Below, piece by piece: positions 16,014 to 64,000 of a stretch of DNA of 64,000 nucleotides. Below the pieces are notes generated by a model. It made no database searches and was not told the DNA's origin. It worked only from the letters and a program-made list of their open reading frames with translations. The position numbers and the translations under genes were made by a program. The stretch spans positions 2,480,001 through 2,544,000 of the forward strand of contig NW_026250403.1 of the NCBI RefSeq assembly GCF_024521635.1, written 5' to 3'. How positions within the stretch are numbered: the stretch's first letter is position 1; every line of letters starts with the position of its first letter. The DNA comes from Tricharina praecox. Its lineage: Eukaryota.

Positions 16014-16418
16014 TCTGGTTGTGCTTGTGCTTGTCAGTGGGTTTCCTAGAGTTGTGGGGTTCTCTCTGGTTGATCGTGCGAGTAGTTGTGGTTGTGGCAG
16101 TGGTGGGGCAGGCAAGGACTGTTTAAAAGGATTGTGTCATAGTGGGGCAATTTGGGTTTGATGGTGGGGGGAACTAAAAATCGGGAATAGCCGATGAATA
16201 ATCTATCGTAGGGATGTCTCAGATGGACTCATACTCTATCATAGCTAGGGATGTCTCTGGTATGCGTCACAGCTGGGAACTCGGGCTCAGAGGTTGAAGA
16301 ATCGATCAACATTACAATTTCTTATGAGTGATAATAAAACTATAGTACACCGCCTTAGAAAATCCAAACTACTCATCTACAACCGCTTCTGTCCAAGCCT
16401 CCGATTTCCACAGGATTT

Positions 16419-18483
16419 CTAATGTTTCCTGATTTTCAACGCAATCCACGCCAGCAGCCTGAGGCCCACAATGATAGCCAGCAAGATACCAATCCACATA
16501 CCCTCCTCCCTCTTGCCATACCCCATCGCCTTCAGGACACTCTGTCCAGCAATCTTCCCCTCTCCCTGCAGGGGCGAGGCATACATGCACTGCCAGCCCT
16601 CACCACTCTCTGCACGGTCACACTGGTACTCGCGCCCATCGAACTCGTTGAACATCATTGCCTGGAAGACGTAGCGCTGGTAGTTGATCCAGTAGAAGGT
16701 GTAGTACCAAAAGTCGTTCAGCACGTTCTGGGGCACCAGGAAGCCGCCCACACTCATCCACAGGCCGTTGATAAAGGCGGTGACAGCGAGGGCGATGACG
16801 AATACCGGGATGACGGAGGAGACAAGGACTACCAGCGACTCGGCGGCGAGGAGATCGAGGAACAGCCACATAACGTACTTGAAGAAGCTCGTTGCGTCGG
16901 TGCGGAAATTGACGAGGAAGACGGTGATGATCGAGAACAGCAGGGTGTTCAGGAAGATGAATGGAATGCCGATCAGGAAGTTGGACAGCAGGAATGACGT
17001 TGGGCCGTAAAGCCCGTTGTTCCGCTCCTTGACGAACGAAGAGTAGTCCTCAATGAAGGCGGGGATGTACGCTACCGCCATGAACGACATGAATGCGCCG
17101 GAGAAGAAGATGGCATTGGTAAATACTTGGATGTTGCGTTGCTCGGAGTCGAGACGCAGCCAGACGGTGCCCATCATCAGCGCGAGACCGAGGTACATCG
17201 CCACTCTGATCCAATAGGCGAGGATGTCGCGGTAGGACTTGATCCATTGCCGGTGCAGGAGAACGAATGTCTTATGGAAGGAGCTACGGTGCGATACGCC
17301 GGACTGAGCGAGCATATCGTTAGTGCCCTTGCGAAATTCCTTCGGTTTGTTGGTATCATTCCAGGCGTCGATGAGACGGTTGAGACGGTCCACGTCGCCC
17401 GCTTCGGCGTCGAAATCGACATTGCAGACATCGAGGTAGTACTCGGCAGGGTTCGTCAGGTTGGGCACCGGGAAGCCTTGTCCGGCGAAATAGGGTACGG
17501 CTTCGTCCGTCTTGCCGGAGTAAACGACTCTTCCCCTGGATAGTAGGACCAGCTGCGAGAATAGGGCGAATGTAGCGGTCGACGGTTGGTGGATGGATAC
17601 TATGACGATCATGTTCTCAGCTTCTGCAACCTTTTTTATGCGAGACATGACTTCGAACGATGCGGTGGAATCCAATCCACTGGTCTAATGATCCTGTTAG
17701 AGACTGATGGGGGTGACAGACAAGCATAGGTAGGAACATACCGGTTCGTCCAGGAACAGGATCTTCGGCCTGGTAATCAACTGGCTAGCAACACTGACTC
17801 GCCGCTTCTGTCCACCGGAAATCCCCTTCTTGACCGGTGTTCCAATCATTGCATCTTGCTGCATCTCCAATCCGAACGCCTTGATCAAAGCAGTGACCCT
17901 CTCCTTCCGCCCGGCCCCGGTCGGCGCAAGTCTCGCGGCAAACTCGATAGTCTCGCGGACGGTCAACGAGCCTAATCACTGCAAATCAGAACCACGTCCC
18001 CCCGTCCAAACGCTCTCCCTCGGAATGGAGCCATACCGATCAATGCATCCTCCTGCTCCACGTACGTGCTGATACTCCTCAGGGTATCCGAGCCGATTTC
18101 ATTCCCATCGATCAACAACTCCCCCTCGACCGAAGCCGACGCCGCGGCCGGTCTCCTCGCCAGGACGTTAAGCAGTGTTGTTTTCCCGGAGCCACTGGGG
18201 CCCATCAATGCGACCATCTCGCCTACAATATCCACCGCATTAGCATGTCGATACGGCGCATCTGTGCGAGATCTGTGCGGGATCTGTCTCGTCCCGTCCG
18301 ATGTTACATACCTGGTCGAGCACCGCCGGTAATACCGTCGAGGATCTTGAACGGCTGTTTCGTTTTCGTGTCTTTGACGGTCACATTGACGTCCCGCCAT
18401 TCGAACAGTTTGAGGAGCGCCCGAGCGTCGCCGTTGGCCTCGAGGTCGATCATGTTGAGGGCTGTGTCCGACATCGTTGACAT
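16419..18483 (-). CDS. ABCG (White-like) half-size ABC transporter, NBD-TMD order (about 617 aa, 4 exons)
   Basis: Exons 18483-18312, 18222-18037, 17971-17742 and 17684-16419 (1854 nt). Walker A GPSGSGKT, Q-loop YVEQED, signature ISGGQKRR, Walker B/D-loop LFLDEPTSGLD, H-loop SIHQP, then an ABC2-type membrane domain. Confidence 0.96.
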
Positions 18484-22065: not shown

Positions 22066-24558
22066 CTATGCCTTGGAATCTCCCTTGGCATCCTCGCAGA
22101 TGATGGTCTTCATCAAACCCGCCAACTTCGGCCACCCCTCCTCCATTCTCCCCAGCGCATCCAGCAGGATTTCCACCTGGTTCCGCACGGTTCCGTTCCC
22201 GTTCCCGCCTTCACCTCCCTGGGACACGAATCGGTAACACAGTATGCGTGCTGCCATGAACAACGTAGGTGCCAAAAGCGGGTTCCCAAGGACCCTATCG
22301 TCATCGGGATCCAGCGTGCTCGACACATTACGGATCAGCGTGAGAATGTTTTCCACCGCGTTGACGCTGCGCTGCTCGCCGTCTTGTTCGTCCCGTCCGT
22401 GTAGGAATATGGTACACGCGTGAGTGGTGCAGCCCAGTAGTAAGACGGTGGGCATCTCCTTGGGAGATACACCGATCATGGAGCGGTATGGTTTCGGTAT
22501 GTTCAAAAGGAAGCGCGTCAAGGCGAGATCAAGGGCCATGGACTCGGTCGAGGAGCGCTGCGGGCGCGGATGGTGGAGGATGCGGCCGAGGAGGACAGCG
22601 AGCTTGCAGAGATGCTGGTAAGCATCGCGCTGTGGACTCTGACTGTTACCCATCATCGTTGAGGGAACGAGCCCGTCCAAGCTGTTGGGAAAGGGATCGA
22701 TGACCATGTGTTCGACACTCTACAATACGAGTCAGCATCGGAGGGGCGGGCCAAAAGCTGTGATCGGAATATAAATACCTCCAGTGATCCACTCTGAAAG
22801 ACGTCTTCCGATACTGGAAAGTTCACGTTGAACTGCGAATCATCGATACACACGGGCCAGGGCACGGAGGTGGTCGAGAGGCGGTCCAAAATGAAAATCG
22901 CCCACACAGTCCTCCTGCGCTCTTCGATCTCCAGTTCGTTACGCGGGTCCGGAAGGAATCCTCGGAATGCCGAGTTGGAGTCGATCCTGTCGAGACCGAG
23001 CGGCGAACACATGCGCCATACCGAGCCGAGGAATATCCACATCTGCGACATCTGCGACAGCCCGAACATCCGCAGACACAGGTAGATCCCGCCCTGTACT
23101 GCATGCATCGTGAACTGGCCCTCACTAACTGCGCGATCAAAACACGCCTTGCCGAGCGTAGCCCAGTAAGAAGAAGCCGCTTTCACTCCGGCGTCAGGGT
23201 GAAGGTAGCCCGAGAGGGCGAGAATCGCAAAAGTCAGCGTGTTCGGCCGGGTTAGGGGTCCTTTAGACGCGATATCCTCCATGACGCGCTTCTTGTACAG
23301 AAACGGGAGAATCGTATGCCATTTCTCAAAGAAAAGGTTGAATAGTACTTTCATCAACTCCGGCGAAGGGAGCCCATCATCTGACAGCTCTGGCATCTCA
23401 TCCGTGACCGCGTCGTCGCCAGCCAGCAAATGAGAGGTATCGATCTGCGCGAGGCCAACGAACGGCGACGCCTGCAGGAACTGCGTCGCAAACTGCGTCG
23501 CATCGCATTCCACGTGCGTTGTATGGCTCGGGGGATTAATCGCGCGCGCGCTGACATCGGGCGACGAGTCGAGGGATGAGAAGGAGCGTTTGCGCGGGTT
23601 GAAAGTCGTACTCCCGTTAGTGAGGTTCGGCGAGAGTCGCGACGACGCGAAAGTTGGCGATACGCGTGCGCCCGTAGCATCCGCGTTGACAGGTGTGAAG
23701 CCACCTCCTCCGCCGGTACCGGAAGTCGAGCTGGGCGTCGGGCGATGGACCGTGGGGACCGTGAGGCTAGGCGTCATGGAAGTCCCGCGCATCGCAATCG
23801 GCGGATCATGCGCGGCGGGCGTCTTGGAGCCTCGGGTGGTCGAAAGCGACGATTGCTCAGCTGGGGCGCGATCAGCGGGTTGGTCCGACGATCAATAGTG
23901 GGGGAGGGGGGGCATTCAACTCACCTCGATAATGGGCACTCGAATGAATTTTAGTGACCGCATTATTCGTATAAACACAAGGCCGATCGAGTCGCTCGCA
24001 AGCTCCACAGCTTGGCTTACATCCCTATGTCGTGAGAGTTGGAATTAGCGACGATTCGGAGGTAGTGATAACGTGATGTTTTATTTTTATTTTGAGTTTT
24101 TTTTTTTAATCGCGGACGCGTTGCGACAGCGGGGGAGGGGGACGTACGTCGCACTTGCGCTTTCGTTGGCGACAACCCAGACACGCCTGGTTCCTTTCCA
24201 GCACCTTCTTTGTCGGCGGTGTATCCCGAGTGTTATTCTGGTGCGCGAGTGACGGCGGGGCAGGTGTGGTGCTCATCGCGACGGCATTGGTCGAGGCCGA
24301 GGGAGCTGCGTTAGTTGCGGGAGGGGAGGTGGGAACGGACATCGAGCGGGAACCAACAGCGGGGGGCGACAGCGCTCGGTGGGCCGAGTGAGTCGGAGAT
24401 GTGGGCGAGTTGGAGGGCGACAGCATCTCGTGAGCGAGCACCAGCGACGGACTCGAAGGCGCGGCGGCAGTCAGAGGAGTAGACGCCGGCGACGGTGACC
24501 GGATCGAGGGAGGGCGGGCGGACGGAGGAGGAGGAGGAGGCGGAGGGGTGGCGGCCAT
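22066..24558 (-). CDS. Zn(II)2Cys6 transcription factor with fungal-specific TF domain (about 748 aa, 4 exons)
   Basis: Exons 24558-24148, 24024-23925, 23860-22779 and 22719-22066 (2247 nt). The zinc cluster ACLGCRQRKRKCD|GCKPSCGACERLDRPCVY is split by intron 1; middle-homology motifs LFFEKWHTILPFL, LGLDRID, EERRRTVWAIFILDR. Confidence 0.94.
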
Positions 24559-48700: not shown

Positions 48701-49778
48701 TTACAGCTTCGCTGGTACATCCACCTTGAAACCCGCCTCCTTCTGGAAAATTTCGATCGTCTCGTTCCACAGCCTCTCCCTAATCCCTTTACCCTCGTCG
48801 TTAAACAGCAACGGATTGAACCTGTAAATTCCGCCATCAGTATCCGAACGCCACTACGGAGATGAGTGAAACTTACGGCAGAGTCACACCGATCCCGGTC
48901 GTCAAGGACCCGTGCCCATCCCTTCCTTTGACCACACCGGACGTGAGAACCCTCGCACAGGCCTCAGCACTCCACGTGATCCACCTGAAGTAGATGAGCT
49001 TCGCAAAGCCCATAAGCCAGCGCGGATACTCCCTGAACAGGTTCGTATCCGCCATAGCCGGGCAAACCGCATTTACGACGACATCGGCGCCGCTGACGCG
49101 CTCGGCGAGTGCCTGCACCCAAAACAGGTTGAGGAGCTTGCTGTTGTGGTAGTTTGCGTACACGTCGAAGCCCTTGCTTGCCGGATCGCCCATCCAGTGA
49201 ATCATTTTCGGGTGGTGCTTGGCAGGCAGAGTCGTCCAGGTGTTTGTGCCGCCGGCGACGACGGTGAGGTTTGCGGGCTTGCGCGGACACGCCTCGAGGA
49301 GCGGTAGGAGCAGGAGCGACATCAGCGATGTCGAGACGTGGTTTATCTGGATTGTCCTCTCGCGCCCATACGGAGACTTCTCGATCTTGGGGGTATTGAT
49401 GGCCGCATTCAGGAGGGCAATATCGAGGTAGGCCGTGCTCTCCTTCAGTTTTTCAACAAATGCGGAGATGTATTCGTGGCGCTCCTGGTCGAGCTCGTAT
49501 ACATCGACCTTTGCGTTCGGGTTCACCCGCTGAGTGGTTTTATCGGCGAGTAGCAGCTTTCGGGCGGCTTCGGCGCGGGAGAGCGAGCGAGACGTAATAA
49601 TTAGATATGATAGCTTGAGGCGTAATAGCTGACGACCACATTCGAAGCCGAGACCAGCATTCCCTCCGGTGATGAGCGCCGTCTTACCGGAAAGGTCGTT
49701 GCCCTCATATGGAACCGGCTTTGGAGTGGCGCGAAGTTGGTAGTAGATGAAGGAGGGTCTGAAGTTGTCGAGACTCAT
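48701..49778 (-). CDS. Short-chain dehydrogenase/reductase, retinol-dehydrogenase-like (about 340 aa, 2 exons)
   Basis: Exons 49778-48877 and 48821-48701 (1023 nt). TGGNAGLG Rossmann motif, LDIALLNA, catalytic YHNSK, VNAVCP; last exon RERLWNET. Confidence 0.93.
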
Positions 49779-50042
49779 TGCGGCGGCGGTGTTCCACGCA
49801 ATGTATTATTGACGGCTTTAACTTGTCGTTGTGAGGTGAAGTTTGCGTGTTCAGCTTGTCTATCGAGTTTGTATATGCTCGGAGAAATATAGAAGCTCCG
49901 TGAGGAGGTACACAGGTGGTTTAAGTACATGTAACCACATAGATGTCGGTCACTTAGAATATAGTCAGAATATGCTTGTCCATTATCTGCATGGACCGCC
50001 TCCGCAATAGCACTTCTCCCTCGATGTACGAGTAGATTGAGA

Positions 50043-50219
50043 CATACACTTCGGAGACTTCATTCGAAGCACTTCGCCGGTAACATCTCTGTGACTTTGG
50101 ATGTCACGGAATGTACGAGAACTTTGATTGCCATACGCAAAATACCAAAAGATACACTGCGAAGACTTGATTCTAGGCAACTTTCCGGTAACATCTCGGC
50201 GACTTTGACTGTTACGGAA
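50043..50219. repeat. Imperfect direct repeat: 69-bp core at 108-bp spacing
   Basis: 50043-50111 and 50151-50219 align without gaps at 54 of 69 positions by my count. Confidence 0.8.
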
Positions 50220-53200
50220 TTCCGGGTGCTTTTTGGTGTTTCACGGGCCGGCATCGTACACGGCAATAAAAAGCGAAAGCAGACAATGTTGGACAGTACA
50301 CGGTATATATTTCCTCCGTGTTGCATGTCAGAATCTTCCAAAAGATTCGACAATACGTTTACACTATCATTATTCGTTAGTCGCCGAAATGTGTGCGAGA
50401 AGACACGGATGTCCGGTGCTACCAGAGTTGTCTGACGCAGTATCGATCTTTACTGTCGGCGGCAGACCATCCAGCGCTTATCTCGTTACACTGGGCGGAG
50501 ACAACGAACTGGTTCAGTTGGCGGGTAGATTGTAGGCGTTTCAGTTGGGTTGCCGCCGGCTGTCGGATTTGCAAATTGCAGCTGTTGCGGTTCGCTCATG
50601 ATTTTTGGCCCAGTTGAACGGCCAAACTGTTTGCACTGGCAGTTTGAATGAAACTTTTTTTCAACACCTTTCACAGCCTAGAAATCACTAATAACCGCAA
50701 AATAAAACCCCCTTACATACTCATATGCATCCGACATAACAGCTTACTTAGTACAGCTTCGCAGCGGCAGACATGATTACTCCACCGCATTACTACCAAT
50801 TCGATAGCAGTTTCACAGTCTGGAGGAGTTCAATCGGAACTATTGATTACATGCGACCTATCTAATTATGGCAATAAAGACTCCGCTTCTTCATCAAGGA
50901 ATTTCATGAAAGAGTATATGGGGATGCAGCTTGCAAGATGCAACAAGTGCGGCGAGGTTTCACTCTACATCACTCGCATGCCCGACTTGGCGCGTGTTGG
51001 AAATGGTGATTGAACAGTGAATTGTATAAGAACTTTGTATCTTATTCAGATAACAGAGGTTATAGTCTCAGAGAAGGTTAAAGGCTCGTGATTTCCACCA
51101 TGAGTATGCCATCGAGTGGTATATTATCAGCGCGCAGTGTTCGCAACAGAGTTAAGCCTGCCCATATAATGCACTGCTCGGAACCCGCAAGCCCAAGATC
51201 ACCCTCGATTCAAACGATTGGTCGAGGTGAGAGAAGAAGTAAGACAGCGGAGCTAGCTGATGAAAGTTGCCCTTGGTCAACATCTTTGCATGCCGTTGCG
51301 AGGATTATCACTCGTTTAAAACTCAGGGCTGAGTTTTTGGCGGCAAGTTGCAACTGACACCATTGAATGGAAGGAATCAGTCCAGCCCAGCCCATAAAGT
51401 GAAGGGTCATGCTTAGACGGTCCGTCAAACACTTTCCGAAATTTTGAGGCGATGCCGCACTGGGAGGCACTGGAATGTCTCGACATCTGGCAACGGGATG
51501 GACTTGCACATAGCTGCTACAAAGGACGATTGCAAGGAGATGGGGCGATGCGTATTGTACTCTTTGAGGAGGAGGATTTACAAATTACAATAGCTTTATA
51601 AAAACTTCGTCAATAATGTCCAACAGGAACTGAAACTGGAAAAGCAAGTGCGAGTGCTGGAGTATGATGGTACTATGCTCCAGTGAGGACGAATTGCTGT
51701 CCAAGTTTATTACTCTAACGGGCTGCAGCCGTGAGGATAGGCTACACGATCACCTGTTATAGATACTTAGGTGACTGTAACTGATTTATGGTTTGTAATG
51801 GACACTTTATGTCGGCTGTTGAAGACACGAGCAATCACACATCAAAACGATATCTCCGCCGGTCTTCGATCCCTCCAATACTCCAGGCCTAGTGATTCAT
51901 CTGCCACATCCACCAAAGCCGATGTAGGCGCCTAATGGGGAAGCCACATGGTCGGTGGCCAGAGGGAAGCTAAGTCACTACTCACACGGCCGGAAATTTT
52001 GGCCGTGTGAGTAGTCAGTTACATAGAGTACATAGCAGCGACCTTGCAGCGGGACGTTCCGCTGCGGACCCCAGTCCACACCGAGAGTCAAGACAGGTTG
52101 AACGGCGAACATGTGGATCAAGCCGATACTTTACGGAAATCAGCCTCGCCGTGGCTTCACTTCACCACGCTTGTGTTTCCACATTTTCGTTTCTCGGCTA
52201 CTCCCCCTAATCGGGCTGGGGCTCGCCACTCTGCGACCTCTCTCGAGAAACATCGTACGGTACATACCCCTACTTACCTTGCCATTGGGATTCCCGCCAG
52301 CCTTCAAATTACCTCCAGGAACAGGTCACAGAGTACATTGCCAACAAGCGACTCATGAGATCCGGATCTCGTGAAGGAAAAGAAGAAAAAAACCAGGAAA
52401 AAAAACATATCATGTTGAACTCCGGACCCCATCTTCCTAGAGTATATCTAGGGTATATCACCCAATATCCGTCCCCTCCCTAGTTATCCGGGCGGGCGGA
52501 ACACGATTGCCAGCGACCTATTTTCGGGGCCCGGAGCCACCGTTCAATCGCTCTACATCAGACAGCCGTCCGACCAGAGGTCCAACACGCACAAACAAAA
52601 TATAGGTCACATAACTGTAGATACAGTACATACAAAGTATCTACATACAACTTCGGCGACACTCCCGGATCGGATCGAATCGCTATACCTAGTATATTCG
52701 CCCGCGTTAATGTTCCAGGATTAGGCAATTACAATCCGATATTCAGATTTAGGTGGCCAATGATGACGCCAGGTCCAGGTGATACCGATACCTACCGAGG
52801 TAGATCTATCCACACCACACGGACCGAGCGAACCTCCTGACCTTCCATGCGCAGGCTCGGCGTCGGCGACGTCGGCGCTTCAGGCTTCAGGCACTGGGCT
52901 CTGGGCCTTTCAGTGGCCGGGGGGGGAGCGTGTTGCAAGTTACAAGTTGCGAACCAACGACTCTCGTCAGGGGGGTACCGCAGTCGGAAGCGCCTGTAAG
53001 GAGAAGAAGAAGGAGAAGAAAAAAAGAAGCAGGCAATTATCACGATCAGCCGTTACACGGATCGCCGATCAATCCGTGGCTCGCACGGTCGCACCCAAGT
53101 AAGTAGGTGCATATGTAAGTAGTTACCGCGCCCGTTTATCTGGCGGCAAAAAAAAGGAGCAACAGTAGGCGGGAAGCGTCTAAGTCAACCGCGCACTGCA

Positions 53201-56200
53201 TACTGCATCACGTCTGATAGAGTAGAGCGATCGCTTCATGGTGTGTTACATCGAGACGTGCATAGTTCAGACGCGGCCCGCGCTCCGATGGATTACCTAC
53301 GGTATCTGTACTCTAGTAAGATATTCGAGAAATTTCGCTGTATGTACTGGTAGCAGAATAATAAAACGGCAGAGGAAATTCGGGCCAAACCGGTGACTGG
53401 TGGGTCAGCACCTTGGTAGGTACCTATCGGGGTGAGGATTTTTTGAAAACGTTGATCTCCGAAGCATCGTATCATGTGTACCAGTACATGCCTGAATTCC
53501 AACAGTGGATCAGGTGCAATCTCAAGTTTCGACCCTAGACTGTCTCTCCGGTATTCGGCCGGAAGTCTCCAGCCTACACGATGGCTAACTAACTGGGATG
53601 TGGATTCGCCAACACCGATTCGATTAAGGTTCGAAACCGGCGTGTGGATGGCCAGTTGCGCGCGAGACACCGGAAGACGGCCATGTGTAGGAGTGTAGGT
53701 TGTCGCCAGGGTGGCATATACTAGCAGTTAATTATTAGTTAGTTACTCTCTACCTATCGAACAATAGCCGTCCGCTTGAAATACCTAGGTAGGCAATCAA
53801 TTCTCCTAGTCCATCCCCCGTCAAAGCTCGTGTTTGGGCCGTCTATGCGCGTTTCTGTGGGATTGACTTTGAGCGCGGGGAGGGGTGGGGTTCCTGTTCC
53901 TGCAGGTCCAGTCACGTCCGTATGATCCGAGGTTGCATGATGCTCGCGAATGAACGTGCGTGGGGGAAACGTATGTACATGCTTACATGCATACGTGGGC
54001 ATAGTTACCAGCGCCGAAGCATACATAGGACAAGCTCATTTCGGAACGACGCTTGTCTGGACAGTGGATTCTGCGCAGGCGACGTGACGTCGCGGAGTTC
54101 TAAGACCTCAGCTCTCCGAGTCAGGAGGTAATCTTTTCTAACGGCCACAACGCTAAGCTTAAAAAAGGTGTGTGGCTGTGGCAAGGAGTCACGTGCTTGC
54201 AGCAAAGAAAGGTTTTCACCCCTGAGTTCCGTGTCTGTACCATAACCACCAACCATTCCTACTACCACCATCACCATATCCAAATAACTTCAACCAAATG
54301 TCTTCCGGTATGACTTCCCTCCCACACTAGGTATGCGTTGTATTGAAAGAAGCAGCTCTTTCAGTTAGATAAATCCGCTGATTTACCTGTGGATCAGTTC
54401 AGCGAAGTTGGGCCGTTGGTGGGCAGTGTCTACGCGTTTCGAAATAGGAGTATACAGCAGAACAAAGCAGTATCCAACCACGAGTCGATGACAATCCGAT
54501 CCAACACAGAATCAGCAGCGTCCGTGATACCGATCAGTGTCCGGTTACTGTCAAGTTGACGCGTCAACTCGTCGGACTGCATCCCACCGTTATTCTCGAA
54601 CGCGAAACCAAACATTACCACAGTTACCATTTTGAAACCAGTTGCACGGCGAAAAAGTCAGCTGATCGCGACAGAAGTCGAGAAGAACTACCTATTCCGC
54701 TGCTCATATTTTATTTTTACTTGGAAACCGAAACGAAGGATTTAACCTGATGTCTAGCAACGGTATATTCATATGTTTGATGAGCTTGAAACAGCTGTGT
54801 ACGTGACGACTGGAGTGGTAGTGTTAGTGGAATGAGTTGATGGGGGAAACCAAATGCGAGGCCGTCGCCAGCAGAAAGTCTCGGACTTGGATGGACCAGT
54901 TTAGAGAAGCTGTTGCACCGCCGGAGGAAATTTTCGAAAGGCAAAGGCCATGGGAGTTGTATATATTTTCTTTTAGAATAATTTTACTATGAGACGAGTA
55001 ATCGCTGCAAAAATCTGAATTTCTTGTGACAGTTATAATTTTCGATGGGATTATTTGAAGGGCATGAGTCGGTATGCCGCGGAATCTGCTATGGTTGTGC
55101 TGTGCTGACGACGGTGTTGGTATGTATGTAGGCCCTAGGGGCGACTCTTCGACAGGCGACAGCCACACCCACATCTGTTGTGCCACACGCTAAACTTTAG
55201 CGTTGCGGCCGCTAGAAAAGATTCCGTCAGGAGCCAGCGGGCGTGCGTCATCACATGCGCAGCCAGCGGCCACGGCGCGACTTCGTGATCTTTTTTTCTT
55301 CTCTTTCTTTCTTTTTTATCCTTTCGTCGGTGGGATGACATCTAGCGATGGGGGTCGCATGCCGTCCGCACGCTGTCTAGTATCCGCACAGGCTGAAGAT
55401 TCGACTGTCAAAAGAAAAACAAAAAACAAAAAACAAAAAACCGGTTGGCCGGTTGGGATCGAAACATGGCAACATGGAAATTCCGGCTCTTCAGCAGGTA
55501 TCATCCATCCATCCATCTATGTACCCATCCATACTTGGTACATACCCTCGCATCCCAGCGTATCGACGGACCACTGGAGCTTCACGTTGTGAGAGGTGCT
55601 ATGGAATTGAGTTCTGCCAGCTAGCCAGCTATGTGAACCGGCGCCGGTAGAGTACTACCTATATCAAGTGTGCTCCCGCAACGGATTGCCGGAAACAATC
55701 GATGGGCCTTCCAAACATCGCCCGTCCAATAAACACGTACCTTGCAGGCCTGTTTGCGATATCTACTCTACTCTACTCTACGTGTATTCGACGTATGCAG
55801 GTACATAGCTTGTACTCTATGTACTCTAAGCCTAGCGGGGGCCGGCGTGGTACTGAGCAATGAGCATCTCAACGCATTTTTCCTGTTCGGCTCCGAGTGC
55901 CCCCCTCGCCGTGCGCTGTAACTAGGCTGGAGCCGAGTGGTATGCAGCGGATATAGGGCAAAAGCCTGAAACTTTTCGGCTATGATGGGTGGACAATATA
56001 TGTCTGTTTCAACTTTCCTCTGCCACTTTGCTCCCTATGGTGTCCTATCCCCAACGCAGGCAAGCGGCTGGATCGGCGGTCCGAAACAGTCGACCGTTGC
56101 CAAGCTCAGCGGATGAAGTAGACCACCCTGGCGTGCGATCGATATTGGCCATGGGTTTGTTTTTTCTGCTTCTTCTCTGCTTCTCTGCTTCTTCTTTTTC

Positions 56201-59200
56201 CGGGCCCCTGGGTGTGCCGATGCGCCCGTTACACATCCCATCACTCACGTCTGCAGCACAGCACATAGCACAGAACCCATACGCCCTATCCACTCTACCG
56301 TACTCCGTTCTATCCACCTCATCCACAAGTTTCGTCCGTCGTATATCGGGCTGGGGTGGTGGGGGGGGGGGGGGGGGGGGGGAGGGCCTGGGTTTAAATG
56401 ACGGGGCTAGCCATACGAGTGCCCGCCCCACCAAGGTTCTCGCCGACCCACTCCACTTCGTTTCACCCCACCAGCATAGCATCATCACCGCACCGCCGGT
56501 GCGTATGTATGCACCGCCCAGTACCCACCGCCCACCGCGGCCCGCATCGGCTTGGTGGGGCTTATCCGGCTATTTGGTACGCACATATGTAGGTAGAGTA
56601 CGTACCGCGAGATTCCTCTGACCACCACCCGACCCGATGCACTGCACCCGATGCTTCCGATGCATCCACAGCAGAGCGTTAGAGACATAGGTACGGTATC
56701 CACACACTCTCGGAATGTGCGTGCGTGCGTGTGCAATTGAACATGTATGTAGCCCGGAAGTGTGCAGTGCTTGGCTATAGCACCGTACATAGCAGCCAGG
56801 ACTGAGGAAACAAGGCTTGCAAGTGGCCGAGGGCGTAAGCAGGCCAGCAAATAGTGTTTACTAGTATGTAGCCTCCAATGAAACCCCGACCCGACGAACA
56901 CATCCATAGGTATGTAGGTATAGTAGAGCATGTAACCCCCGGCGGCCAAGCATTCGCTGGAGCATTGAGCAGAACAGATATTCGCTCGTATGTAAATATG
57001 TGCGGTGTATGTAGGTGCGGGCGTTTCGGAGAAATCGGAGGTGCAGAGATGCAGAGATGCGGAGTTGCGGATCTGGGAATTGCCTGACCTCAGCAGTTTT
57101 TTTCGCTCGCTCACGGCTCCCGAAACACACCATACCGCAGTTCGCAGTCCACACCGCAGTCAGCAGCAGCAGTCCCGACCGGCGCCGGCGGCCGGGCACC
57201 TGTCCGTCAGCGAACTCAGCGAACTCAGCCCTCGTCTTCCCGCTCCCCACACCCCCGCACCCGGTCTGTATGTACTTGCATACGGTACAGGAACGCGGAA
57301 GAAAACGATGAGGAAAAGAAAAAGAAAAAGAAAACAAACAAATAATAAATAAATAAACAAATGATTAAAGTTTCGATACGAGGGACGGCCCGGGGTTATT
57401 GGGATGACCAAGTTGACGGGGAGAGGAGCATCCGATCACCGCAGAACCGCAGAACCGCAGAACCGCACCAACCGCTCTAACTATCAGTCTACTCTATAGT
57501 AGTAAGTATTTACGCACGCAAGCACATACTTGGGTTGTTAACCAGCGCGGCCAACGCTTTTAGCCACAGCCTACAGGTAGCGACTAGTATACTCACATTC
57601 CGTGTACTTATATACGGGAGAGGCGAGCTATGTAGACGGGCCCGGCTGTGTCTGTGTGTGTGTGTGTGGGCACGCTACGATAACTACTATACACGAGCAA
57701 TTCACATGTGGGTGGGGGGGTCTATATCGCCCATTTTTTTATCGATATCAGCCCATGGGTAAAGCCGCACACACAAAAAACCTTAGTGCGGGATGTAAGT
57801 ACTATACGAGGCAGGTACACGCTCCAGTTTGGCAGCGGTATGATGAGGTATGAGGTATGTATGTAGTGCATATGCACAGATGCATTGGATACTTACTCTA
57901 CCTATATATGATAGATATAAATTAAAGCCGGCCGGTGCGGGGCAAGCATATGGATTGTAACGATACGAGAATTGTATGTATGATGGATGGATGTAGGTAG
58001 GAATTGTACAACACATGAGTACCGGTACCTTCCTACACGCCCAAATTCACTCATGAGTGGAAACCCCCGCCCCCGCCTTGCTTTCTTTTTTTCGGGTTCT
58101 TTTTTGTTTCCTTTTATCTTTTTTGGAATTGATTTTTTCAATTGCCCTGAGTGACTCAATTCCGACAAGTCCACCACCCGTCATCTGCGTAGAGCTCTTC
58201 GTACGCTGCTGACAGGAAAGTACTTGTATGTATGATAGGTGGTGAGAAAGTGAATGAGCCGCCCAAACACCACCTCGTAGATACCTCGCACCGTACCGTG
58301 ATAGTGCGACACACCCGACTGAATTTCAAGGCGCAACGACCAACGACTCATGGGACAAACGCGCCTAAAAACCGCACAAGATGCGCGTCCGCATCTGAAA
58401 TCGAACGCTGACGATTCTCGCCGCTTTGCAGCCACGGGGTACGTCCGTAAGTGCCCGAGGAGCATATGATAGTGGAGTACTCACTGCAGTACTCGGGCCG
58501 GAAATGTGGGTTTAATCGGGTGCATGGTGCCCACTGATGGGAACAGCAATCCACCTTCACATCGGATGAGTTCCGTCTGCACCAGAGCGGGGCACAGTGA
58601 GCGGGAAAGAGTACAATTCACGCCGTCTACTGTAGTCCCCAGACAATTGACTCCACTTATGATACCGGAAGAAACTCATTTTCTATTGAACGAACACGCA
58701 GCACGCAACCCGAGTAACCCAAGAAGAAATCCAAATCCAAAACCAAAAATCCAATTTCCTGACCGAAATCCCATACCAGCCGTGATTCCCGAAAGAACGA
58801 AAACGAAAAAAGGGAAACAACCCGACAAACAAAAACAAAAAACACCACGCACCGTCTATGTAAATAGTATGTATCCTGACCAACCAGCCCTAAAAAAGTA
58901 ACAAAAAAAACAGTAGCACGTAACATACATATACTCCCCATCCGTGTCTATATTCCGATCCCTTCCTCCCTCCCTCTCGTTCTCTCCCCTTTTTCTTGCC
59001 CCGATCCCCCCGATCCCTCGATCCCGTAAACCTGTCAGTGTAGCCGTTTTTCCCGCGCATAGTACAATGTGAAGTGCGGCGACAAGCCCCGCAATAAAAA
59101 TGATCAGCCCAGACAGACTCCCCAGCCGAAAAAAAAAAACCGAACCCGGAAAAGAAAAGGATAAATAAAGGGAATCAAAAATACACGGTCCCACACGATC

Positions 59201-59230
59201 GATGACGAAGAAGGGGAAGAAGAGGGAAAA

Positions 59231-59266
59231 GAAGAAGAAGAAGAAGAAGAAGAAGAAGAAGAAGAA
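59231..59266. repeat. (GAA)12 microsatellite downstream of the 55-aa gene
   Basis: Perfect trinucleotide run. Confidence 0.95.
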
Positions 59267-59697
59267 AAAAAGAATCCGGAACAGACAGCGGGGAGGTGCA
59301 ATAACGACAATACGAAACGGTATCATCAATTAATCGCTGTTGAGTGCGGACTGTGTTGAATGGCAGGGATGGCCCAGACCGCTTTGACGCGGTGAGTGGG
59401 GCTGTTGCCCACATCCTTCCATCCAGTGTTCCATGCGCTTCTCCGATCGTTGTTCGTTTCGTTCGCTCGTTCGAATTCGTTCCGACGCCCTTTATGTTGC
59501 AACCACTGACCGCTTCGTACCCGGAATCCCCTCTCTGAACACGTGCCCGCGAAGTGGGCGATGTCTTCTTTTTTTTTTTTGCTTCTCTTCGTCTCTCGGT
59601 CTCGGTCTCGGTCTCGTCTCAGGTCTTCCTCTTGGTCTTCGTCTCTCCGTCCTCTTCTTTTCCTCGTGCCCTCTCGTATCCACTCGTCCTGTCTCCT

Positions 59698-60258
59698 TTA
59701 TGTGGATTGACAAGTTCCTGCCCAACCACAGTCAGTACCTAGAGCATATGGCCGTGGCCAACACGACTGGAGGGAAGGAGACATACCGCATCTATGGTCG
59801 TTTCGATGATCTTCGCCAATAACATTTACCCCGCAGCGTACGGTACCCTGACTTTGCACATACTGCGTGCACCAGGCTCTCACGATGATTCGGAAATGTC
59901 CTTTGATCACTGTCAGCTTCCTGTCCTTTCTTTTCTGTTTGTCCATTTGTTTCCGTGTTCTTGTGTGGGTTGTGGCTTGGTGGCTGGCGCTTGCGGGTGC
60001 ATGCGTCTCCCACCACTCTCCCAACCACCATTCCCAGACCCGAAGGAGTGGAGGCGAGGGTGGCGAGAAGCGGAGGTATCGGGGAATATTTTTTGGAGGC
60101 TTGGGGAAAAGGAAAGGGGAACGTGCGGATCATGAGATCGATCCAAAGCAATAGATTGACTGTCTGGCCATCTTTCTTTTTGGTACACTGGTAGTGGTTG
60201 GCTGGCGGTGTCGATAGAACTTACCGCATCCATAGAACACCTTGGTATAATCACACAT
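59698..60258 (-). CDS. Spliced Cys/His microprotein, 55 aa: MCDYTKVFYGCGHFRIIVRAWCTQYVQSQGTVRCGVNVIGEDHRNDHRCGTCQST
   Basis: Exons 60258-60225, 59900-59787 and 59717-59698 (168 nt). Start context gccaccATG. Intron 1 gtaagt...gctgac...aag (324 nt); intron 2 gtatgt...actgac...cag (69 nt); both phase 1 in Gly codons. Resembles recalled fungal hypothetical proteins of the MCDYTQVEY.CGH.R..VRAWC..Y.....RC...V......CGDC type. Confidence 0.88.
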
Positions 60259-61374
60259 GGTGGCTTTTTCGAATGTGAAGTACGGCTTGGGACCGGCCGA
60301 GTTATTGATGCAGAGTGCGTGATGTGTGTATCAAGGCACCGCTTGGTGGTACTGGTGTTGGTGGTGTTGGTGTTGGTGGTGTTGGTGTTGGTGGTTATGC
60401 GATTGAAGCAGGCTGCGGCTAAACCAATTGGAAAGAGACAAACAAAAGCGTCCGGTGGAAACGGAAGAAGCTATTCGTACTTTGCCGATGTGCGAAAACG
60501 TTTGGATTCCGATTGAGATGGTATGGCAGGTGATGGTGTAGTAGGAGACTGTTCGTAGGCTTGAGGAAGGAATGCGGCTTGCTTGAGGGCAGGCGAGTCG
60601 TCATTTATATTCAAGAGGCTCCAGGTGCATTTGCCAGGGAAGGTCTCCCGCAGTTCTCATTCCACACAACCTCGTTATGGTCGATGTACTCCAACTCATA
60701 GGGCACCACCACCTAGAGACAGTGGACACGCCGATTCGGGAGAAAAGGAAAAAAAGAAAAGAAAAAAGAAAGAAAAAACACCTCGAGAAAGTCGTGGTGG
60801 TTACGCTAGCTTCAGGACCACGACCTGTCAAGCATCTAGATGGATAGGAGCATGGATATTGGTTATGGGATGCTCCGGGGATCCAGTGGGAGAGTGATAT
60901 ATCAAGGGAGCTTCCCTCAGAATACTCCCGCAAAGGAGCCCTATGCGGACCATCGTACGTACGCCCACGCCCACGCTGCGTAGCTGTGGTCTAAACATAG
61001 GGTTGGGGTGGTAGCATAGCTTGCTTGATCCTGACTCGACGTCGTCCCGCTGCTCTGCAGTGTCTCGATCACGTCGAGCAATTATCTAGCTGGTTACTGG
61101 GTTCGGCTGGCAGCCTGGCTCTGGGAAGTGCAGAAGCCTCATGGCCGCTGAGAATGATCGATTGGTTAGTGGGATGGTGTACCACTAGCTACAGCAATAA
61201 GATGCTCACTTGACAGCCCATAATTATTCCCATCTATTATAGCTAGCTCTCGTGGTCTGACGTCGTGTATCAAAAGGAAGCAATGAGGTCTAGTCGGTGA
61301 GGCCGAAAAGGATCTAGGTCATTCATTGCCTGTGTTCTATTTGTTACTCAGGGTTGATGGGCGTACGGCGGAGG

Positions 61375-61494
61375 ACGGTGATGGTGGTCGTGGTAGTGGT
61401 GGTGGTGGCGGTGGTGGTGGTGGTGGTGGTCGATGGTAGGTGGTCGATGGTAGGTAGTGGTGGTGGTGGTGGTGGTGGTGGTGGTGGTGGTGGT
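61375..61494. repeat. Interrupted (GGT)n microsatellite
   Basis: About 120 bp of GGT/GTG units with occasional substitutions. Confidence 0.9.
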
Positions 61495-62951
61495 AATGAC
61501 AGTTTGTTGTATGTGGTGGCCGTCCCTCGCGTTATTGTTGGTGGTGGGACTACTGGAAGCAACGGTAAAGGTCAATCGATGGTCGACAACAACAATCCAT
61601 GACCACCACGAGCGTTAGGTTTGCGGCTGGCCAAAAACGATAGCATCTATTCGTTTGTCCGAGTACGCCGACCACACCGAACGAAAAGAGAAAAAAAGAA
61701 AAATAATAACCTCGAATTATTCTCTCCTCTGAACATGAATCGAGTGTTTCAGCTCGAGTAAGTTAACTACTGGTGCGCAGAAACCCAGCCAAAGGAATAA
61801 TGGGGTCAGGGTTGTTCTCGTAAGAAATCAGGCCCTTGGCTTCTGCTGAGCCGCGTGCTGCTCACAGATCCGAATCGCGATGCGTAGATCTGAGGAGTCT
61901 CGAATTTAACGACTACCAGCTCTCCCTTGCTGCGATGGCTTGCGGCCCGCCGCCGACAGCCTTTCCTTTCCCAATCCCTTTGCTTCAGGTGCGGTATCTG
62001 CGAGGGATAATGCTTCTTTGTTCCCGCTTGATCCTGGACGATGGCTGGCCAGTGGGTGAGTATGGCTGGCTGTGGTGGCTGATTCGAGGAGCTAGTGGCG
62101 ATGATGGTGCGTGAATGATGATGATGATGCTGGTTGTCGGGGATGCACGCAGCGTTTACGCCGTTTGAGGCCTGCGCTAACCAGTTGGTGGCCTGCTCCG
62201 TCAACCTCCTTCTCCTCCTCCTCCTCCTCTCCGCCTTCTACGTCCTCCCTCGGCCACCTCTCCAGTCCAAGGCCAGCAGAATGACATTCCCTCTTTCTGG
62301 CCACTTTTCTCGATAGCTGTGGACAATTCACTGGATGTGTGCATCTGTCTCAAATCTCTCCCCACCCCCCTCCCTCTCTCCCTCTCGGAGAAAACCAGAC
62401 GAATGACCACCCCCATCCCCATAGCAGAACCGCACAACCCACGCACCTCGCACCACCCGATCATGTCGCAACGGGGACGAATCGGTACAGACATGTATGG
62501 AAGTACACAGATGCAAATCAAGTGAGTGAGCGGGGCCCGCCCGGCCCAAAGTAACGCTCGCGAGGGCTTACCTCCAGTCGCCAGCAGTCGGCATGCGCTT
62601 CTTTATGCACGCCATGCTGGTTTCCGTTACATACAGTACAAATGTTGTGTCTGGTTCACGGTATACCATACATATGCTACGTCGATAGAAATCGATCGGA
62701 TCGATGCATCATGACGGGTATCTGTGTAGGTGAACGGAGATACAGACGAGCCCCGTCCAAATGCCGGTGTGCGTGCACCGAGAAGGGGGGGGGGGGGGGG
62801 GGGGGGGGGGTCGGCGAGCCAATCATCGCCCGTCCAGGCCCACACACATCGAGAGCCGAAGGAAAAGAAACAAAGCGGTGGGCTCGACCCATGATTATGA
62901 CACGCAGCACATCGTACACCGCGAATCCGCGGGTATCCACTTTTGCGAGTT

Positions 62952-63171
62952 CAGATCTATTGATGTGGAATATCTGTGTGTGCTTGTTCGGATCCGTTGA
63001 TGTGGAATATGCGTGTGCTTCTTCAGAGATCTATTGATGCGGAATATGCATGCGCTTCTTCAGACCTATGGATGCGGAATATGAGTGTAATTCTTCAGAT
63101 CTATCGATGCAGAATACGAGTGCTCTTCTACAGATCTATTGATGTGGAATAGTAATGTGTGTGTGCTTCTT
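62952..63171. repeat. 35-37-bp minisatellite, 6 copies (cagatctattgatgYggaatatgcgtgtgcttctt)
   Basis: Units start at 62952, 62989, 63024, 63061, 63096 and 63131. Confidence 0.9.
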
Positions 63172-64000
63172 TCCTTCCCGCTAGCGTAAGTGTATTTGTT
63201 TATGGTTGCACCCGGTTCTATGCATGCAGTGCAGACGTACTCTACTCTAGATGATGGGGAGGGAGACGAGATAATGCGGCGATCCTGCGCAGTTTCGCTT
63301 CACACCACCACCACCACCTTTATTGGGCTTGACTCCCCCCTTCAATCCTCTGGGCCTGTGTGCGGGTTACTGTCCCCGGATCGAATGTACACGTGAATCG
63401 ACCGGCCGAGGGAAGGAGGGAGGGCTGTTTGACTCTGGCCGGCTAGGTAGTCGAGCTGGGATATCGTCGTGGCAATTGGCCATGCGAAACGGAAAACGGT
63501 GGCGCGATTCGACGGATAACCGCAGATTGGTGGGTGTGTGCGGCACACAATATATACGACTGTGGGTTTATACGACTGTGGGTTGCAAGTTTGGAGCAAT
63601 ACGACGCCCCGCCGGGACCTCAGCATGATGCCGATAAGTTAGTCAGTGGATGATTTGTGAATAGCCAAGATATATGCAGCAAGGCTCTGATGAAAAGATA
63701 CGTTCCATCCGTTCCGAAATCGAGGGAGGGGAGGGGGAGGGAACTGCTGTGCTATGCATGTCCATCAGGAGGTTGGTATCTGGATATTAGGGAGATGGAG
63801 GGGGAGGGGCCGCTGAGCTGGGTAGCGGGTAGTAGGGACGGCTTGAGATGATATCGCAGCGGTATATTGGGTACTGGCAAAACGTCACGGAAGACAAGGG
63901 AAGAGAGCCAACCGAATTAGCGGGAGCAAGCAGGAAGCGGAGGTTGTGTGGGTTGTGTGGGTTGTGGTTGCGAGGGGGGTTGTGAGGGTTGTGAGGATTG

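What the first reader, a model, noticed from the sequence alone, without database searches (positions are those of the whole stretch)
59698..60258. Hidden three-exon gene for a 55-aa Cys-rich microprotein, invisible as a single ORF
Seen: gccaccATG start, textbook donors (gtaagt, gtatgt), branch points (gctgac, actgac) and phase-consistent joins yield MCDYTKVFYGCGHFRIIVRAWCTQYVQSQGTVRCGVNVIGEDHRNDHRCGTCQST. Both introns split the Gly right after a Cys (C-G|H and C-G|TC). Intron 1 (324 nt) is far longer than any other intron here (about 50-125 nt). Intron 2 is 69 nt, in frame and stop-free, so retention would insert 23 aa into the terminal CxxC. It is the only credible gene in the last 14 kb. 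Inference: a conserved, under-annotated zinc-binding regulator with a possible splice-controlled on/off isoform.
Basis: partly seen in the sequence, partly recalled or inferred. Interest (0 to 1): 0.8.

Follow-up and report, generated by a model that had tools for sequence, protein, structure and literature searches.

The report
Conserved fungal cysteine-rich microprotein gene
The predicted three-exon gene for a 55-residue cysteine-rich protein is real, is spliced exactly as predicted and belongs to an uncharacterised protein family found across filamentous ascomycete fungi, but its function is still unknown.

Summary
On the minus strand, exon 1 (60258-60225), exon 2 (59900-59787) and exon 3 (59717-59698) have canonical GT..AG introns of 324 and 69 nt. 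One contig of public run X2 joins the exons at exactly these junctions.

The peptide is conserved. Exon 2 alone finds 9 relatives among 1.84 billion proteins. A family profile finds 94 proteins, all named hypothetical or uncharacterised and none with a Pfam domain, from five classes of Pezizomycotina. It also finds 52 metagenome loci. In 33 of these loci the first 26 to 51 residues are read without a break, which validates the exon 1-exon 2 join. Against the closest locus, L004, synonymous sites are near saturation and replacement sites are almost unchanged (pS 0.71, pN 0.07).

Six Cys and one His are 90% or more conserved. This suggests a small metal-binding domain, probably zinc, but that is inference. 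No sequence or fold relative was found.

The terminal intron inside the C-G|x-C motif is modelled at the same place in every genomic locus. Its being in frame and stop-free is no more frequent than chance, so the proposed splice switch is not supported.

This is a real, conserved and poorly annotated gene of unknown function, of moderate interest.

The parts
60259..60930 (-). 5' leader as far as the spliced X2 contig reaches. It contains 4 upstream ATGs (uORFs of 5, 7, 32 and 61 codons) and a CAACAC-type microsatellite at about 60344-60402.
   Evidence: The uORFs are poorly conserved against L004 (0.00-0.54 identity). The true transcription start is unknown because contigs are unstranded and may merge transcripts.
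60225..60258 (-). Exon 1, coding part: the start codon plus 10 codons and the first base of Gly12 (peptide MCDYTKVFYGC, then G).
   Evidence: L004 encodes the same peptide with only synonymous differences. The same N-terminus is found in P0005, P0009 and P0012.
59901..60224 (-). Intron 1: 324 nt, phase 1, GTAAGT..AAG, branch-point-like gctgac.
   Evidence: It is removed exactly in the X2 contig. An intron at the same codon was modelled in L001, L004, L010 and L011. It is absent from 33 loci that read residues 1-26 up to 1-51 without a break.
59975..60080 (-). Conserved core inside intron 1, function unknown.
   Evidence: Identity to L004 is 0.84 over 106 nt, as high as the exons. There is a sub-threshold Rfam H/ACA match at 60006-60077 (20.8 bits against a gathering score of 40, E = 0.34). 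Folding energy is unremarkable (z = 0.14).
59787..59900 (-). Exon 2: residues 12-50, the conserved core with the motifs G-H-x-R, W-C, R-C and the Cys49 codon.
59718..59786 (-). Intron 2: 69 nt, phase 1, GTATGT..CAG, in frame and stop-free. It splits the terminal C-G|x-C motif.
   Evidence: It is removed exactly in the X2 contig and kept in a colinear X1 contig. A GT..AG intron at the homologous place was modelled in 49 of 49 genomic loci.
59698..59717 (-). Exon 3, coding part: it completes Gly50, adds T-C-Q-S-T and ends in TAA.
   Evidence: L004 ends G-T-C-Q-stop.
59279..59697 (-). 3' untranslated region as far as the X2 contig was laid. It probably continues past a masked repeat at 59216-59278.
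   Evidence: record 6; record 5 of the same run lies on 59000-59215. No other frame is conserved as coding against L004.

Best explanation
This is a genuine protein-coding gene of a filamentous ascomycete, probably a Pezizomycete judging by its closest relatives.

Shown:
- A pre-mRNA on the minus strand loses a 324-nt and a 69-nt intron.
- The joined 165-nt ORF encodes a 55-residue protein that is essentially one small domain running from Met1 to the last Cys.
- The protein belongs to an uncharacterised family present in at least five classes of Pezizomycotina. Members are recorded in databases only as hypothetical proteins.
- The family hallmarks are an invariant start M-C-D-(Y/F)-T, then C11-x-H13, R15, V18, W21-C22, Y25, R33-C34, N37 and a terminal C49-(G/S)-x(1-2)-C.

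Inferred:
- There is no signal peptide-like or membrane segment, so the protein is intracellular.
- The six Cys and one His fold the roughly 53 residues around one or two metal ions, most likely zinc. AlphaFold predicts a three-stranded sheet with two short helices.
- The protein probably acts as a small binding module or adaptor, not as an enzyme.

My odds: about 0.95 that the gene and the family are real, about 0.5 that it binds zinc. The cellular role is unknown.
For: Splicing:
- One X2 contig of 1295 nt joins the three exons, skipping exactly 324 and 69 nt with GT..AG ends.
- In another lineage, the intron-less contigs L007-L009 align to genomic locus L031 in three blocks. The blocks end at the predicted introns, including the terminal one.

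Conservation:
- Exon 2 alone gives 9 hits at E of 1e-3 or less among 1.84 billion proteins, the best at 1.6e-8.
- P0005 (56 aa), P0009 (52 aa) and P0012 (57 aa, Pyronema domesticum) start with the peptide that the window encodes in exon 1, 324 nt upstream.
- A profile search gives 94 proteins at E of 0.01 or less out of 147 candidates.
- 52 metagenome loci were found. 33 of them read the first 26 to 51 residues without a break, so exon 1 and exon 2 are joined there in the DNA itself.

Selection, window against L004:
- 23.0 synonymous differences over 32.5 sites, and 9.0 replacement differences over 126.5 sites (pS 0.71, pN 0.07).
- Exon 1 differs only at synonymous positions.
- Footprint: exons 0.81-0.82 identical, leader 0.47, uORFs 0.00-0.54.
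- No other frame in the locus is conserved without stops.
- In the cDNA-like contigs L007-L009, the family ORF is the only ORF of 30 aa or more that keeps the same product in all three.

Metal ligands:
- In 34 aligned members, C22, C34 and C49 are invariant, and C2, C11 and H13 are 90% or more conserved.
- 94 of 96 database members have His13.
- The protein contains conserved aromatic residues (W21, Y25) and only about 11% Cys, which fits a folded domain better than a metallothionein.
Against: - Codon usage is poor. The score is -0.28 bits per codon, which 60 of 61 control ORFs from the gene-poor flank equal or exceed and which is below all 77 coding chunks of the window's large genes. GC3 is 0.47 against 0.58-0.76.
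- The X2 contig puts 672 nt and 4 upstream ATGs ahead of the start.
- The kind of run X2 is only guessed to be RNA.
- There is no direct evidence of translation.
- Nothing tested here shows metal binding. Pfam, PDB sequence and fold searches gave no zinc-finger relative.
- Seven conserved ligands fit neither one nor two classical four-ligand sites, and only one CxxC-type knuckle exists.
- The AlphaFold models are of low to middling confidence (pLDDT 56.0 with 6 sequences, 66.2 with 34).
Confidence: 0.8

Rival explanations
1. The cysteines do something other than hold structural zinc. They could form three disulfides, as in small proteins oxidised in the mitochondrial intermembrane space or secreted unconventionally. 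Or they could bind another cofactor such as an iron-sulfur cluster or copper.
For: - There are six conserved Cys in about 53 residues with no classical zinc-finger spacing. The spacings are x8, x10, x11, x14 and x2-3.
- The protein is small and has no presequence, like substrates of the disulfide relay. That comparison rests on established knowledge and was not tested.
- No zinc-finger family matched.
Against: - His13, next to Cys11, is conserved in 94 of 96 members. This points to a metal site, not to disulfides.
- The spacings are not twin Cx9C or Cx3C, and the model is sheet-rich, not helix-turn-helix.
- There is no hydrophobic N-terminal signal; the protein begins M-C-D-Y-T-K.
Confidence: 0.25
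2. One reading: retention of the in-frame, stop-free 69-nt intron 2 is a regulated switch. It would insert 23 residues into the terminal Cys pair and so turn the protein off or change it.
For: - Intron 2 is 3n and stop-free here and in L004 (66 nt).
- A contig of run X1 is colinear with the genome across intron 2.
- Six database gene models (P0014, P0026, P0029, P0037, P0065, P0076) carry an in-frame insertion at this place.
Against: - Across 23 distinct terminal introns, 10 are 3n (binomial P = 0.21). Five of those 10 are stop-free against 3.55 expected (P = 0.24).
- This intron is stop-free in 55% of shuffles.
- The window and L004 are close relatives and count as one event.
- The X1 contig may be genomic DNA or pre-mRNA, since the run's kind is not on record.
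Confidence: 0.07
3. The locus matters at least partly as a host for a functional element in its unusually long first intron, such as a small RNA or a regulatory element. The microprotein would then be secondary.
For: - The intron-1 core 59975-60080 is 0.84 identical to L004, as high as the exons, while the rest of the intron is 0.29-0.47.
- Intron 1 is long in all four modelled relatives (197-284 nt).
- There is a weak H/ACA-type Rfam match in the core (E = 0.34).
Against: - The Rfam score is half the gathering score.
- Folding energy is no better than shuffles (z = 0.14).
- With only two distinct sequences, just 1 of 29 predicted pairs has a two-sided change.
- The core was not found in L001 or L010.
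- Most of the family lacks this intron altogether, while the peptide is conserved everywhere.
Confidence: 0.1
4. The transcript is a spliced non-coding RNA and the 55-codon ORF is fortuitous.
For: - Codon bias is poor.
- There are four upstream ATGs, and the UTRs are long relative to a 165-nt ORF.
Against: - The peptide is conserved across five fungal classes while intron positions differ.
- pN is 0.07 against pS 0.71.
- The Cys and His columns are invariant or nearly so.
Confidence: 0.03

Closest known systems
Hypothetical protein FPQ18DRAFT_313511 of Pyronema domesticum (P0012, 57 aa), with its family of 'hypothetical/uncharacterized' proteins in Pezizomycotina (for example P0009 of Choiromyces venosus and P0016 of Ascochyta lentis)
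   Same: - Same length class and same N-terminus.
- Same six Cys and one His, and the same W-C, R-C and terminal C-G-x-C motifs.
- 67% identity to exon 2.
- Same two intron positions in Pyronema-like and Tuber-like loci.
   Different: - The window's protein has CxxC at the end where Pyronema-like and Tuber-like members have CxxxC.
- The tail after the last Cys differs.
- None of the members has a described function, so membership gives a name but no mechanism.
Small zinc-ribbon or zinc-knuckle proteins (for example zinc-binding ribosomal proteins)
   Same: - About 50 residues, sheet-rich, with Cys ligands placed at hairpin turns and at a helix start in the model.
- A terminal CxxC-type knuckle.
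- The top Foldseek rows, none significant, are small ribosomal proteins.
   Different: - It has only one knuckle instead of two.
- It has seven conserved candidate ligands.
- No HMM or fold match reached significance.
Twin Cx9C (CHCH) proteins of the mitochondrial intermembrane space
   Same: Small and Cys-rich, with no presequence and no membrane segment.
   Different: The spacings are x8 and x11, not two Cx9C. The predicted structure is mainly sheet, and a conserved His sits beside Cys11.
Met-Cys-initiating substrates of the Cys/Arg N-degron pathway (plant ERF-VII, animal RGS4/5)
   Same: The start is invariably M-C. After methionine removal this would expose an N-terminal Cys (established knowledge of methionine aminopeptidase specificity).
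   Different: The passages read in PMC10092093 report that N-terminal cysteine oxidase-like sequences occur in fungi only in chytrids. The enzyme needed is therefore not known in this subphylum, and Cys2 is more simply a metal ligand.

Membership tests
Uncharacterised 'MCDYT' microprotein family of Pezizomycotina (database hypothetical proteins such as P0012) | The protein starts with M-C-D-(Y/F)-T, with a second Cys 8 residues later followed by x-His | tested here: met
   Exon 1 plus the start of exon 2 give this motif. 86 of 96 database members have it.
Uncharacterised 'MCDYT' microprotein family of Pezizomycotina (database hypothetical proteins such as P0012) | Core columns R15, V18, W21-C22, Y25, R33-C34 and C49 invariant | tested here: met
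   All are present in the window's exon 2 in alignment A5 of 34 sequences. The phmmer E-value was down to 1.6e-8 with exon 2 alone.
Uncharacterised 'MCDYT' microprotein family of Pezizomycotina (database hypothetical proteins such as P0012) | Terminal C-(G/S)-x(1-2)-C, split by a phase-1 intron after the first base of the codon that follows (or next but one follows) Cys49 | tested here: met
   Window intron 2 is spliced in X2. A homologous GT..AG intron was modelled in 49 of 49 genomic loci and confirmed by intron-less contigs for L031.
Classical zinc fingers and zinc ribbons (Pfam families) | Significant match to a zinc-finger profile or fold, with two paired CxxC/CxxH knuckles | tested here: inconclusive
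   Pfam: no family for exon 2, P0005 or P0009; zf-RING_13 at E = 1.3 for P0012. PDB profile search: best E = 1.1. Foldseek: none at E of 1e-3 or less. VIA wide: best Z = 2.5. Only one knuckle is present.
Fungal Zn2Cys6 binuclear cluster (Gal4 type) | Spacing CX2CX6CX5-12CX2CX6-8C (recalled from general knowledge) | tested here: not met
   The observed spacing is C-x8-C-x10-C-x11-C-x14-C-x2-C. There was no Pfam match.
Twin Cx9C / CHCH proteins | Two Cx9C motifs in a helix-turn-helix | tested here: not met
   No Cx9C pair. The model has strands at 2-8, 14-20 and 36-43.
Metallothioneins | Very high Cys content in CxC/CxxC clusters with few or no aromatic residues (recalled) | tested here: not met
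   6 Cys in 55 residues, with conserved W21, Y25 and Y/F residues.
Small secreted cysteine-rich proteins (effector-like) | N-terminal signal peptide | tested here: not met
   The N-terminus M-C-D-Y-T-K is polar and is itself the conserved domain start. No dedicated signal-peptide predictor was run.
H/ACA snoRNA (for the conserved core of intron 1) | Rfam covariance-model match above gathering score; hairpin-hinge-hairpin-ACA | tested here: inconclusive
   RF01549 scored 20.8 bits against a gathering score of 40, E = 0.34. z-score 0.14. Only two distinct sequences were available.

The most novel reading that the evidence does not exclude
The family would be an undescribed metal-binding mini-domain of about 53 residues (Cys6His), specific to filamentous ascomycetes.

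- Its fold would have no relative among solved structures.
- It would start at the initiator Met-Cys itself.
- Its last Cys pair would have been split by the same phase-1 intron since before Pezizomycetes separated from the other classes.

The window's gene would then be one of the first members with both introns confirmed by a spliced contig.
Probability: 0.35. Interest if true: 0.6.

Novelty: new member of a known kind. Interest (0 to 1): 0.5.

Why it matters
**Annotation.** Multi-exon genes for proteins under 60 residues are routinely missed or mis-modelled. Here a reader working from raw sequence predicted one correctly, and comparative data show the errors in existing models. Only 19 of 96 database relatives that carry the core have the intact C-terminal Cys pair.

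**An open target.** The family is conserved across at least five classes of Pezizomycotina, including plant pathogens, truffles and dermatophytes. It has no Pfam domain, no solved relative and no paper found in four searches. It is a clean, small target for finding a new metal-binding fold and a new conserved cellular component.

**Intron evolution.** One intron position is kept throughout the family, while another is confined to the Pezizomycete-like members.

Tried and rejected
**Resources that gave nothing**
- Whole-genome search: no genome is held for this window.
- The look-up of sequencing runs: no RNA holder listed. X1 and X2 are 'RNA?' by guess. The soil metatranscriptome runs X3 and X4 had nothing laid.
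- The search for homologous proteins with exon 2 (residues 1-40 of P0001): no candidate among proteins of 36-116 aa.
- The search of earlier findings: nothing by sequence, place or words.

**Family and fold searches**
- Pfam: no hit for exon 2, P0001, P0005 or P0009; only zf-RING_13 at E = 1.3 for P0012.
- PDB by sequence: ThreeFoil at E = 0.017 over a repeat-like stretch, judged chance. The profile search gave myrosinase at E = 1.1.
- ESM Atlas: only small Ascomycota hypothetical clusters at 0.86-0.88, which are leads only. No named cluster.
- Fold searches on the pLDDT-66 model: Foldseek found no match at E of 1e-3 or less. VIA wide gave best Z = 2.5 (BofC; Fur/PerR C-terminal domains at rmsd 8 A), which is uninformative.
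- Complex prediction, two copies with four zinc ions: no answer (score 0.00). The alignment was not used by the tool.

**Checks in the locus**
- The bacterial promoter/terminator scan is irrelevant to a fungus.
- No tRNA in 58000-62000.
- Intron-1 core as a snoRNA: sub-threshold, with no structural signal.
- A second coding frame in the transcript or flanks: tblastn of all ORFs of 20 aa or more in 57500-63000 against L004 gave matches in many frames, most with stops. This is nucleotide-level conservation only.

**Context and other readings**
- Conserved neighbours: an FGGY kinase lies upstream in 7 of 19 representative loci and an M41 peptidase downstream in 2. All belong to one group of related contigs, and none is near the window's gene.
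- N-degron reading of the Met-Cys start: set aside, because N-terminal cysteine oxidase-like genes are reported in fungi only in chytrids (passages of PMC10092093).
- Literature: no paper holds the motif or five locus tags of family members. Searches for Pyronema/small cysteine-rich/intron, Pezizomycotina + microprotein and small ORF/filamentous fungi/cysteine-rich/zinc listed nothing on this family. I saw search listings only. Supplementary tables were not searched.

Full report
**1. The observation**

The minus strand of 59500-60500 shows an ATG at 60258-60256 in the context gccaccATG. After it come ten codons and one base, then GTAAGT.

Intron 1 (60224-59901, 324 nt) ends in AAG, with gctgac 13 nt upstream. 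Exon 2 (59900-59787) runs to TGC G followed by GTATGT. Intron 2 (59786-59718, 69 nt) contains actgac and ends in CAG. Exon 3 (59717-59698) ends in TAA.

Intron 2 is in frame and has no stop. Both introns are phase 1, in a Gly codon directly after a Cys codon.

**2. Splicing**

No whole genome is held for the window. A search for sequencing runs listed two holders of the stretch, X1 and X2. The record does not state their kind ('RNA?' is a guess).

I laid them on 59000-61000.
- Run X2 has one contig of 1295 nt lying on 60930-60224, 59899-59786 and 59716-59279.
- Its two joints skip 324 and 69 nt. The skipped ends are CT..AC on the plus strand, which is GT..AG on the minus strand. These are exactly the predicted junctions.
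- A molecule with both introns cleanly removed is most simply cDNA.
- Run X1 has a contig colinear with the genome from 60118 to 59279. That is the unspliced form, which may be DNA or pre-mRNA.
- A further X2 contig lies on 59000-59215, beyond a masked repeat, so the transcript probably continues there.

The spliced transcript, as far as the X2 contig reaches, is 1259 nt in my reconstruction. The 55-codon ORF is at 673-840, and four ATG-initiated uORFs (5, 7, 32 and 61 codons) lie ahead of it. Contigs are unstranded and can merge neighbouring transcripts, so the true 5' end is unknown.

**3. Is the ORF coding?**

Two results speak against it.
- Codon usage is poor. The score is -0.28 bits per codon, which 60 of 61 control ORFs equal or exceed and which is lower than all 77 coding chunks from the window's large genes. 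GC3 is 0.47 against 0.58-0.76.
- There are uATGs in the leader.

The comparative evidence outweighs both.

Database relatives:
- Exon 2 alone (39 residues, an unbroken window reference) was scored against 1.84 billion proteins. It gave 9 hits at E of 1e-3 or less, the best at 1.6e-8, with 46-65% identity.
- Two of them, P0005 (56 aa) and P0009 (52 aa, Choiromyces venosus), place the matched part at residues 12-50. They begin with the same peptide that the window encodes in exon 1, 324 nt upstream.
- A profile search added P0012, a 57-residue hypothetical protein of Pyronema domesticum. It is 67% identical to exon 2 and has 9 of 11 identical residues against exon 1.

Metagenome loci:
- A scan of metagenome contigs returned 52 loci (53 of 58 matched stretches confirmed).
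- L004-L006 are the closest. L004 encodes an identical exon-1 peptide with only synonymous differences. It has introns of 284 and 66 nt at the same two codons and ends G-T-C-Q-stop.
- By Nei-Gojobori counting, window against L004 gives 23.0 synonymous differences over 32.5 sites and 9.0 replacement differences over 126.5 sites (pS 0.71, pN 0.07).
- Along a window-L004 alignment the exons are 0.81-0.82 identical, the leader 0.47 and the uORFs 0.00-0.54.
- No other frame in 57500-63000 is conserved as coding.

The exon 1-exon 2 join:
- In 33 loci (L007-L009, L015-L044) the first 40 to 51 residues, and in L045-L047 the first 26, are read from DNA without a break.
- So the join that the window makes by splicing exists there as contiguous coding sequence.

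**4. The family**

A broader profile (A4) found 94 proteins at E of 0.01 or less among 147 candidates. Every named one is 'hypothetical' or 'uncharacterized', and none has a precomputed Pfam domain.

The named species fall in five classes, by taxonomy look-ups of one species or family each:
- Pezizomycetes (Pyronema, Choiromyces, Tuber);
- Dothideomycetes (many, for example Ascochyta lentis);
- Leotiomycetes (Botrytis, Monilinia);
- Eurotiomycetes (Nannizzia gypsea);
- Sordariomycetes (a Xylariaceae species).

Conservation in an alignment of 34 members:
- R15, V18, W21, C22, Y25, R33, C34 and C49 are invariant.
- M1, C2, D3, Y4, T5, C11, H13, A20, N37, E42 and R44 are 90% or more conserved.
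- Correctly spliced members continue C49-(G/S)-x(1-2)-C and then have a short, variable, often basic tail.

Of the 99 database proteins gathered, 96 carry the core, 94 have His13, 86 have the M-C...C-x-H start and only 19 have the complete last Cys pair. Many models read into the last intron or start inside intron 1 (for example P0006 and P0007). The family is therefore conserved but poorly annotated.

The window's own product has no near-identical entry. No protein of 36-116 aa shares three 5-residue words with its exon 2.

**5. Introns**

A GT..AG intron at the place of the window's intron 2 can be modelled in 49 of 49 genomic loci. That place is phase 1, after the first base of the codon following Cys49, or one codon later in Pyronema-like and Tuber-like loci.
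- Direct evidence exists for the window.
- Direct evidence also exists for L031. The intron-less contigs L007-L009 align to it in three blocks whose ends match the predicted introns.

Intron 1 (Gly12) was modelled in L001, L004, L010 and L011, at 197-284 nt. It is absent from the other classes' loci, which instead carry a phase-2 intron after the N-V-V-A motif.

**6. The splice-switch idea**

Among 23 distinct terminal introns, 10 have a length divisible by three (binomial P = 0.21). Five of those 10 are stop-free, against 3.55 expected from shuffles (P = 0.24). The window's 69-nt intron is stop-free in 55% of shuffles. The window and L004 share ancestry and count as one event.

There is thus no comparative sign of selection for a translatable retained intron. 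The X1 colinear contig cannot distinguish retention from DNA.

**7. What the protein may do**

- Pfam gives nothing, and PDB sequence and profile searches give nothing credible.
- AlphaFold2 on P0012 gave pLDDT 56.0 with 6 sequences and 66.2 with 34. The model has strands at 2-8, 14-20 and 36-43 and short helices at 23-26 and 51-55.
- There is no N-terminal hydrophobic segment.

Six Cys and a His are conserved, the His sits two residues after Cys11, and aromatic core residues are conserved as well. Together these argue for a folded, intracellular, metal-stabilised mini-domain, most likely zinc. This is inference, and nothing here measures metal.

Seven ligands and a single CxxC-type knuckle do not fit the classical finger, Zn2Cys6, CHCH or metallothionein patterns (see the membership table).

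The invariant Met-Cys start recalls N-degron substrates. However, N-terminal cysteine oxidase-like genes are reported in fungi only in chytrids (passages of PMC10092093). Cys2 is therefore more simply a ligand.

Gene neighbourhood gives no lead. An FGGY kinase and an M41 peptidase flank the gene only in one group of related contigs.

**8. Verdict**

The gene is real, spliced as predicted, under purifying selection and a member of a Pezizomycotina-wide family that exists in databases only as hypothetical proteins.
- Four literature searches found nothing on it (listings only, supplements not searched).
- 'Zinc-binding' is plausible, 'regulator' has no evidence, and 'splice switch' is not supported.
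- I rate it a new member of a known (recorded but uncharacterised) kind, with moderate interest (0.5). Interest would be higher if the domain proves to be a new metal-binding fold.

Noticed in passing
window 59975-60080 (inside intron 1): A 106-nt core of intron 1 is 0.84 identical to locus L004, as conserved as the exons, while the rest of the intron is 0.29-0.47 identical. There is a weak Rfam H/ACA snoRNA match at 60006-60077 (E = 0.34, half the gathering score). Folding energy shows no signal (z = 0.14).
   Followed up: partly
window 59279-60118: A contig of run X1 is colinear with the genome across intron 2 and 218 nt of intron 1 (unspliced form). Run X2 holds the fully spliced form. The kind of both runs is only guessed, so retention cannot be told from DNA.
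   Followed up: partly
window 61020-61460: Non-coding blocks upstream of the transcript are 0.70-0.80 identical to L004. They match in several frames with stops, so they are nucleotide-level conservation of unknown meaning.
   Followed up: no
window 60344-60402, 59562-59623, 59216-59278: There are simple repeats in the leader (CAACAC-type microsatellite) and in the 3' UTR (GAGACC-type repeats and an A run). The read-laying tool skipped these stretches.
   Followed up: no
L016, L026, L030, L032, L046, L048, L052 (flanks); L046, L052: In one group of related metagenome contigs the microprotein gene lies about 1.5 kb downstream of an FGGY carbohydrate kinase gene. In two of them it also lies next to an M41 (FtsH-type) peptidase gene. 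This synteny is absent from the Pezizomycete-like loci and from the window.
   Followed up: partly
L045-L047 and L048-L052: The family shows extra intron positions. An intron appears to follow the W-C codons in L045-L047. In L048-L052 the match starts at residue 3 just after an AG, which suggests an intron right after the first two codons. Neither was verified.
   Followed up: no
database proteins P0006, P0007, P0014, P0026, P0029, P0037, P0065, P0076: Public gene models of the family are often wrong. Some start inside intron 1, with the branch point and acceptor read as codons. Others keep the terminal intron in frame. Only 19 of 96 members carry the complete terminal Cys pair.
   Followed up: partly
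window 1751-7769, 10896-13112, 14487-16136, 16419-17684, 22653-23891, 48873-49805: Large ORFs elsewhere in the window match ATG2, Nup85, RIO1 kinase, an ABC-2 transporter, a fungal-specific transcription factor domain and a short-chain dehydrogenase. This confirms a fungal nuclear genome. In contrast, 29 ORFs of 108 aa or more in 49965-63628 have no Pfam match.
   Followed up: partly
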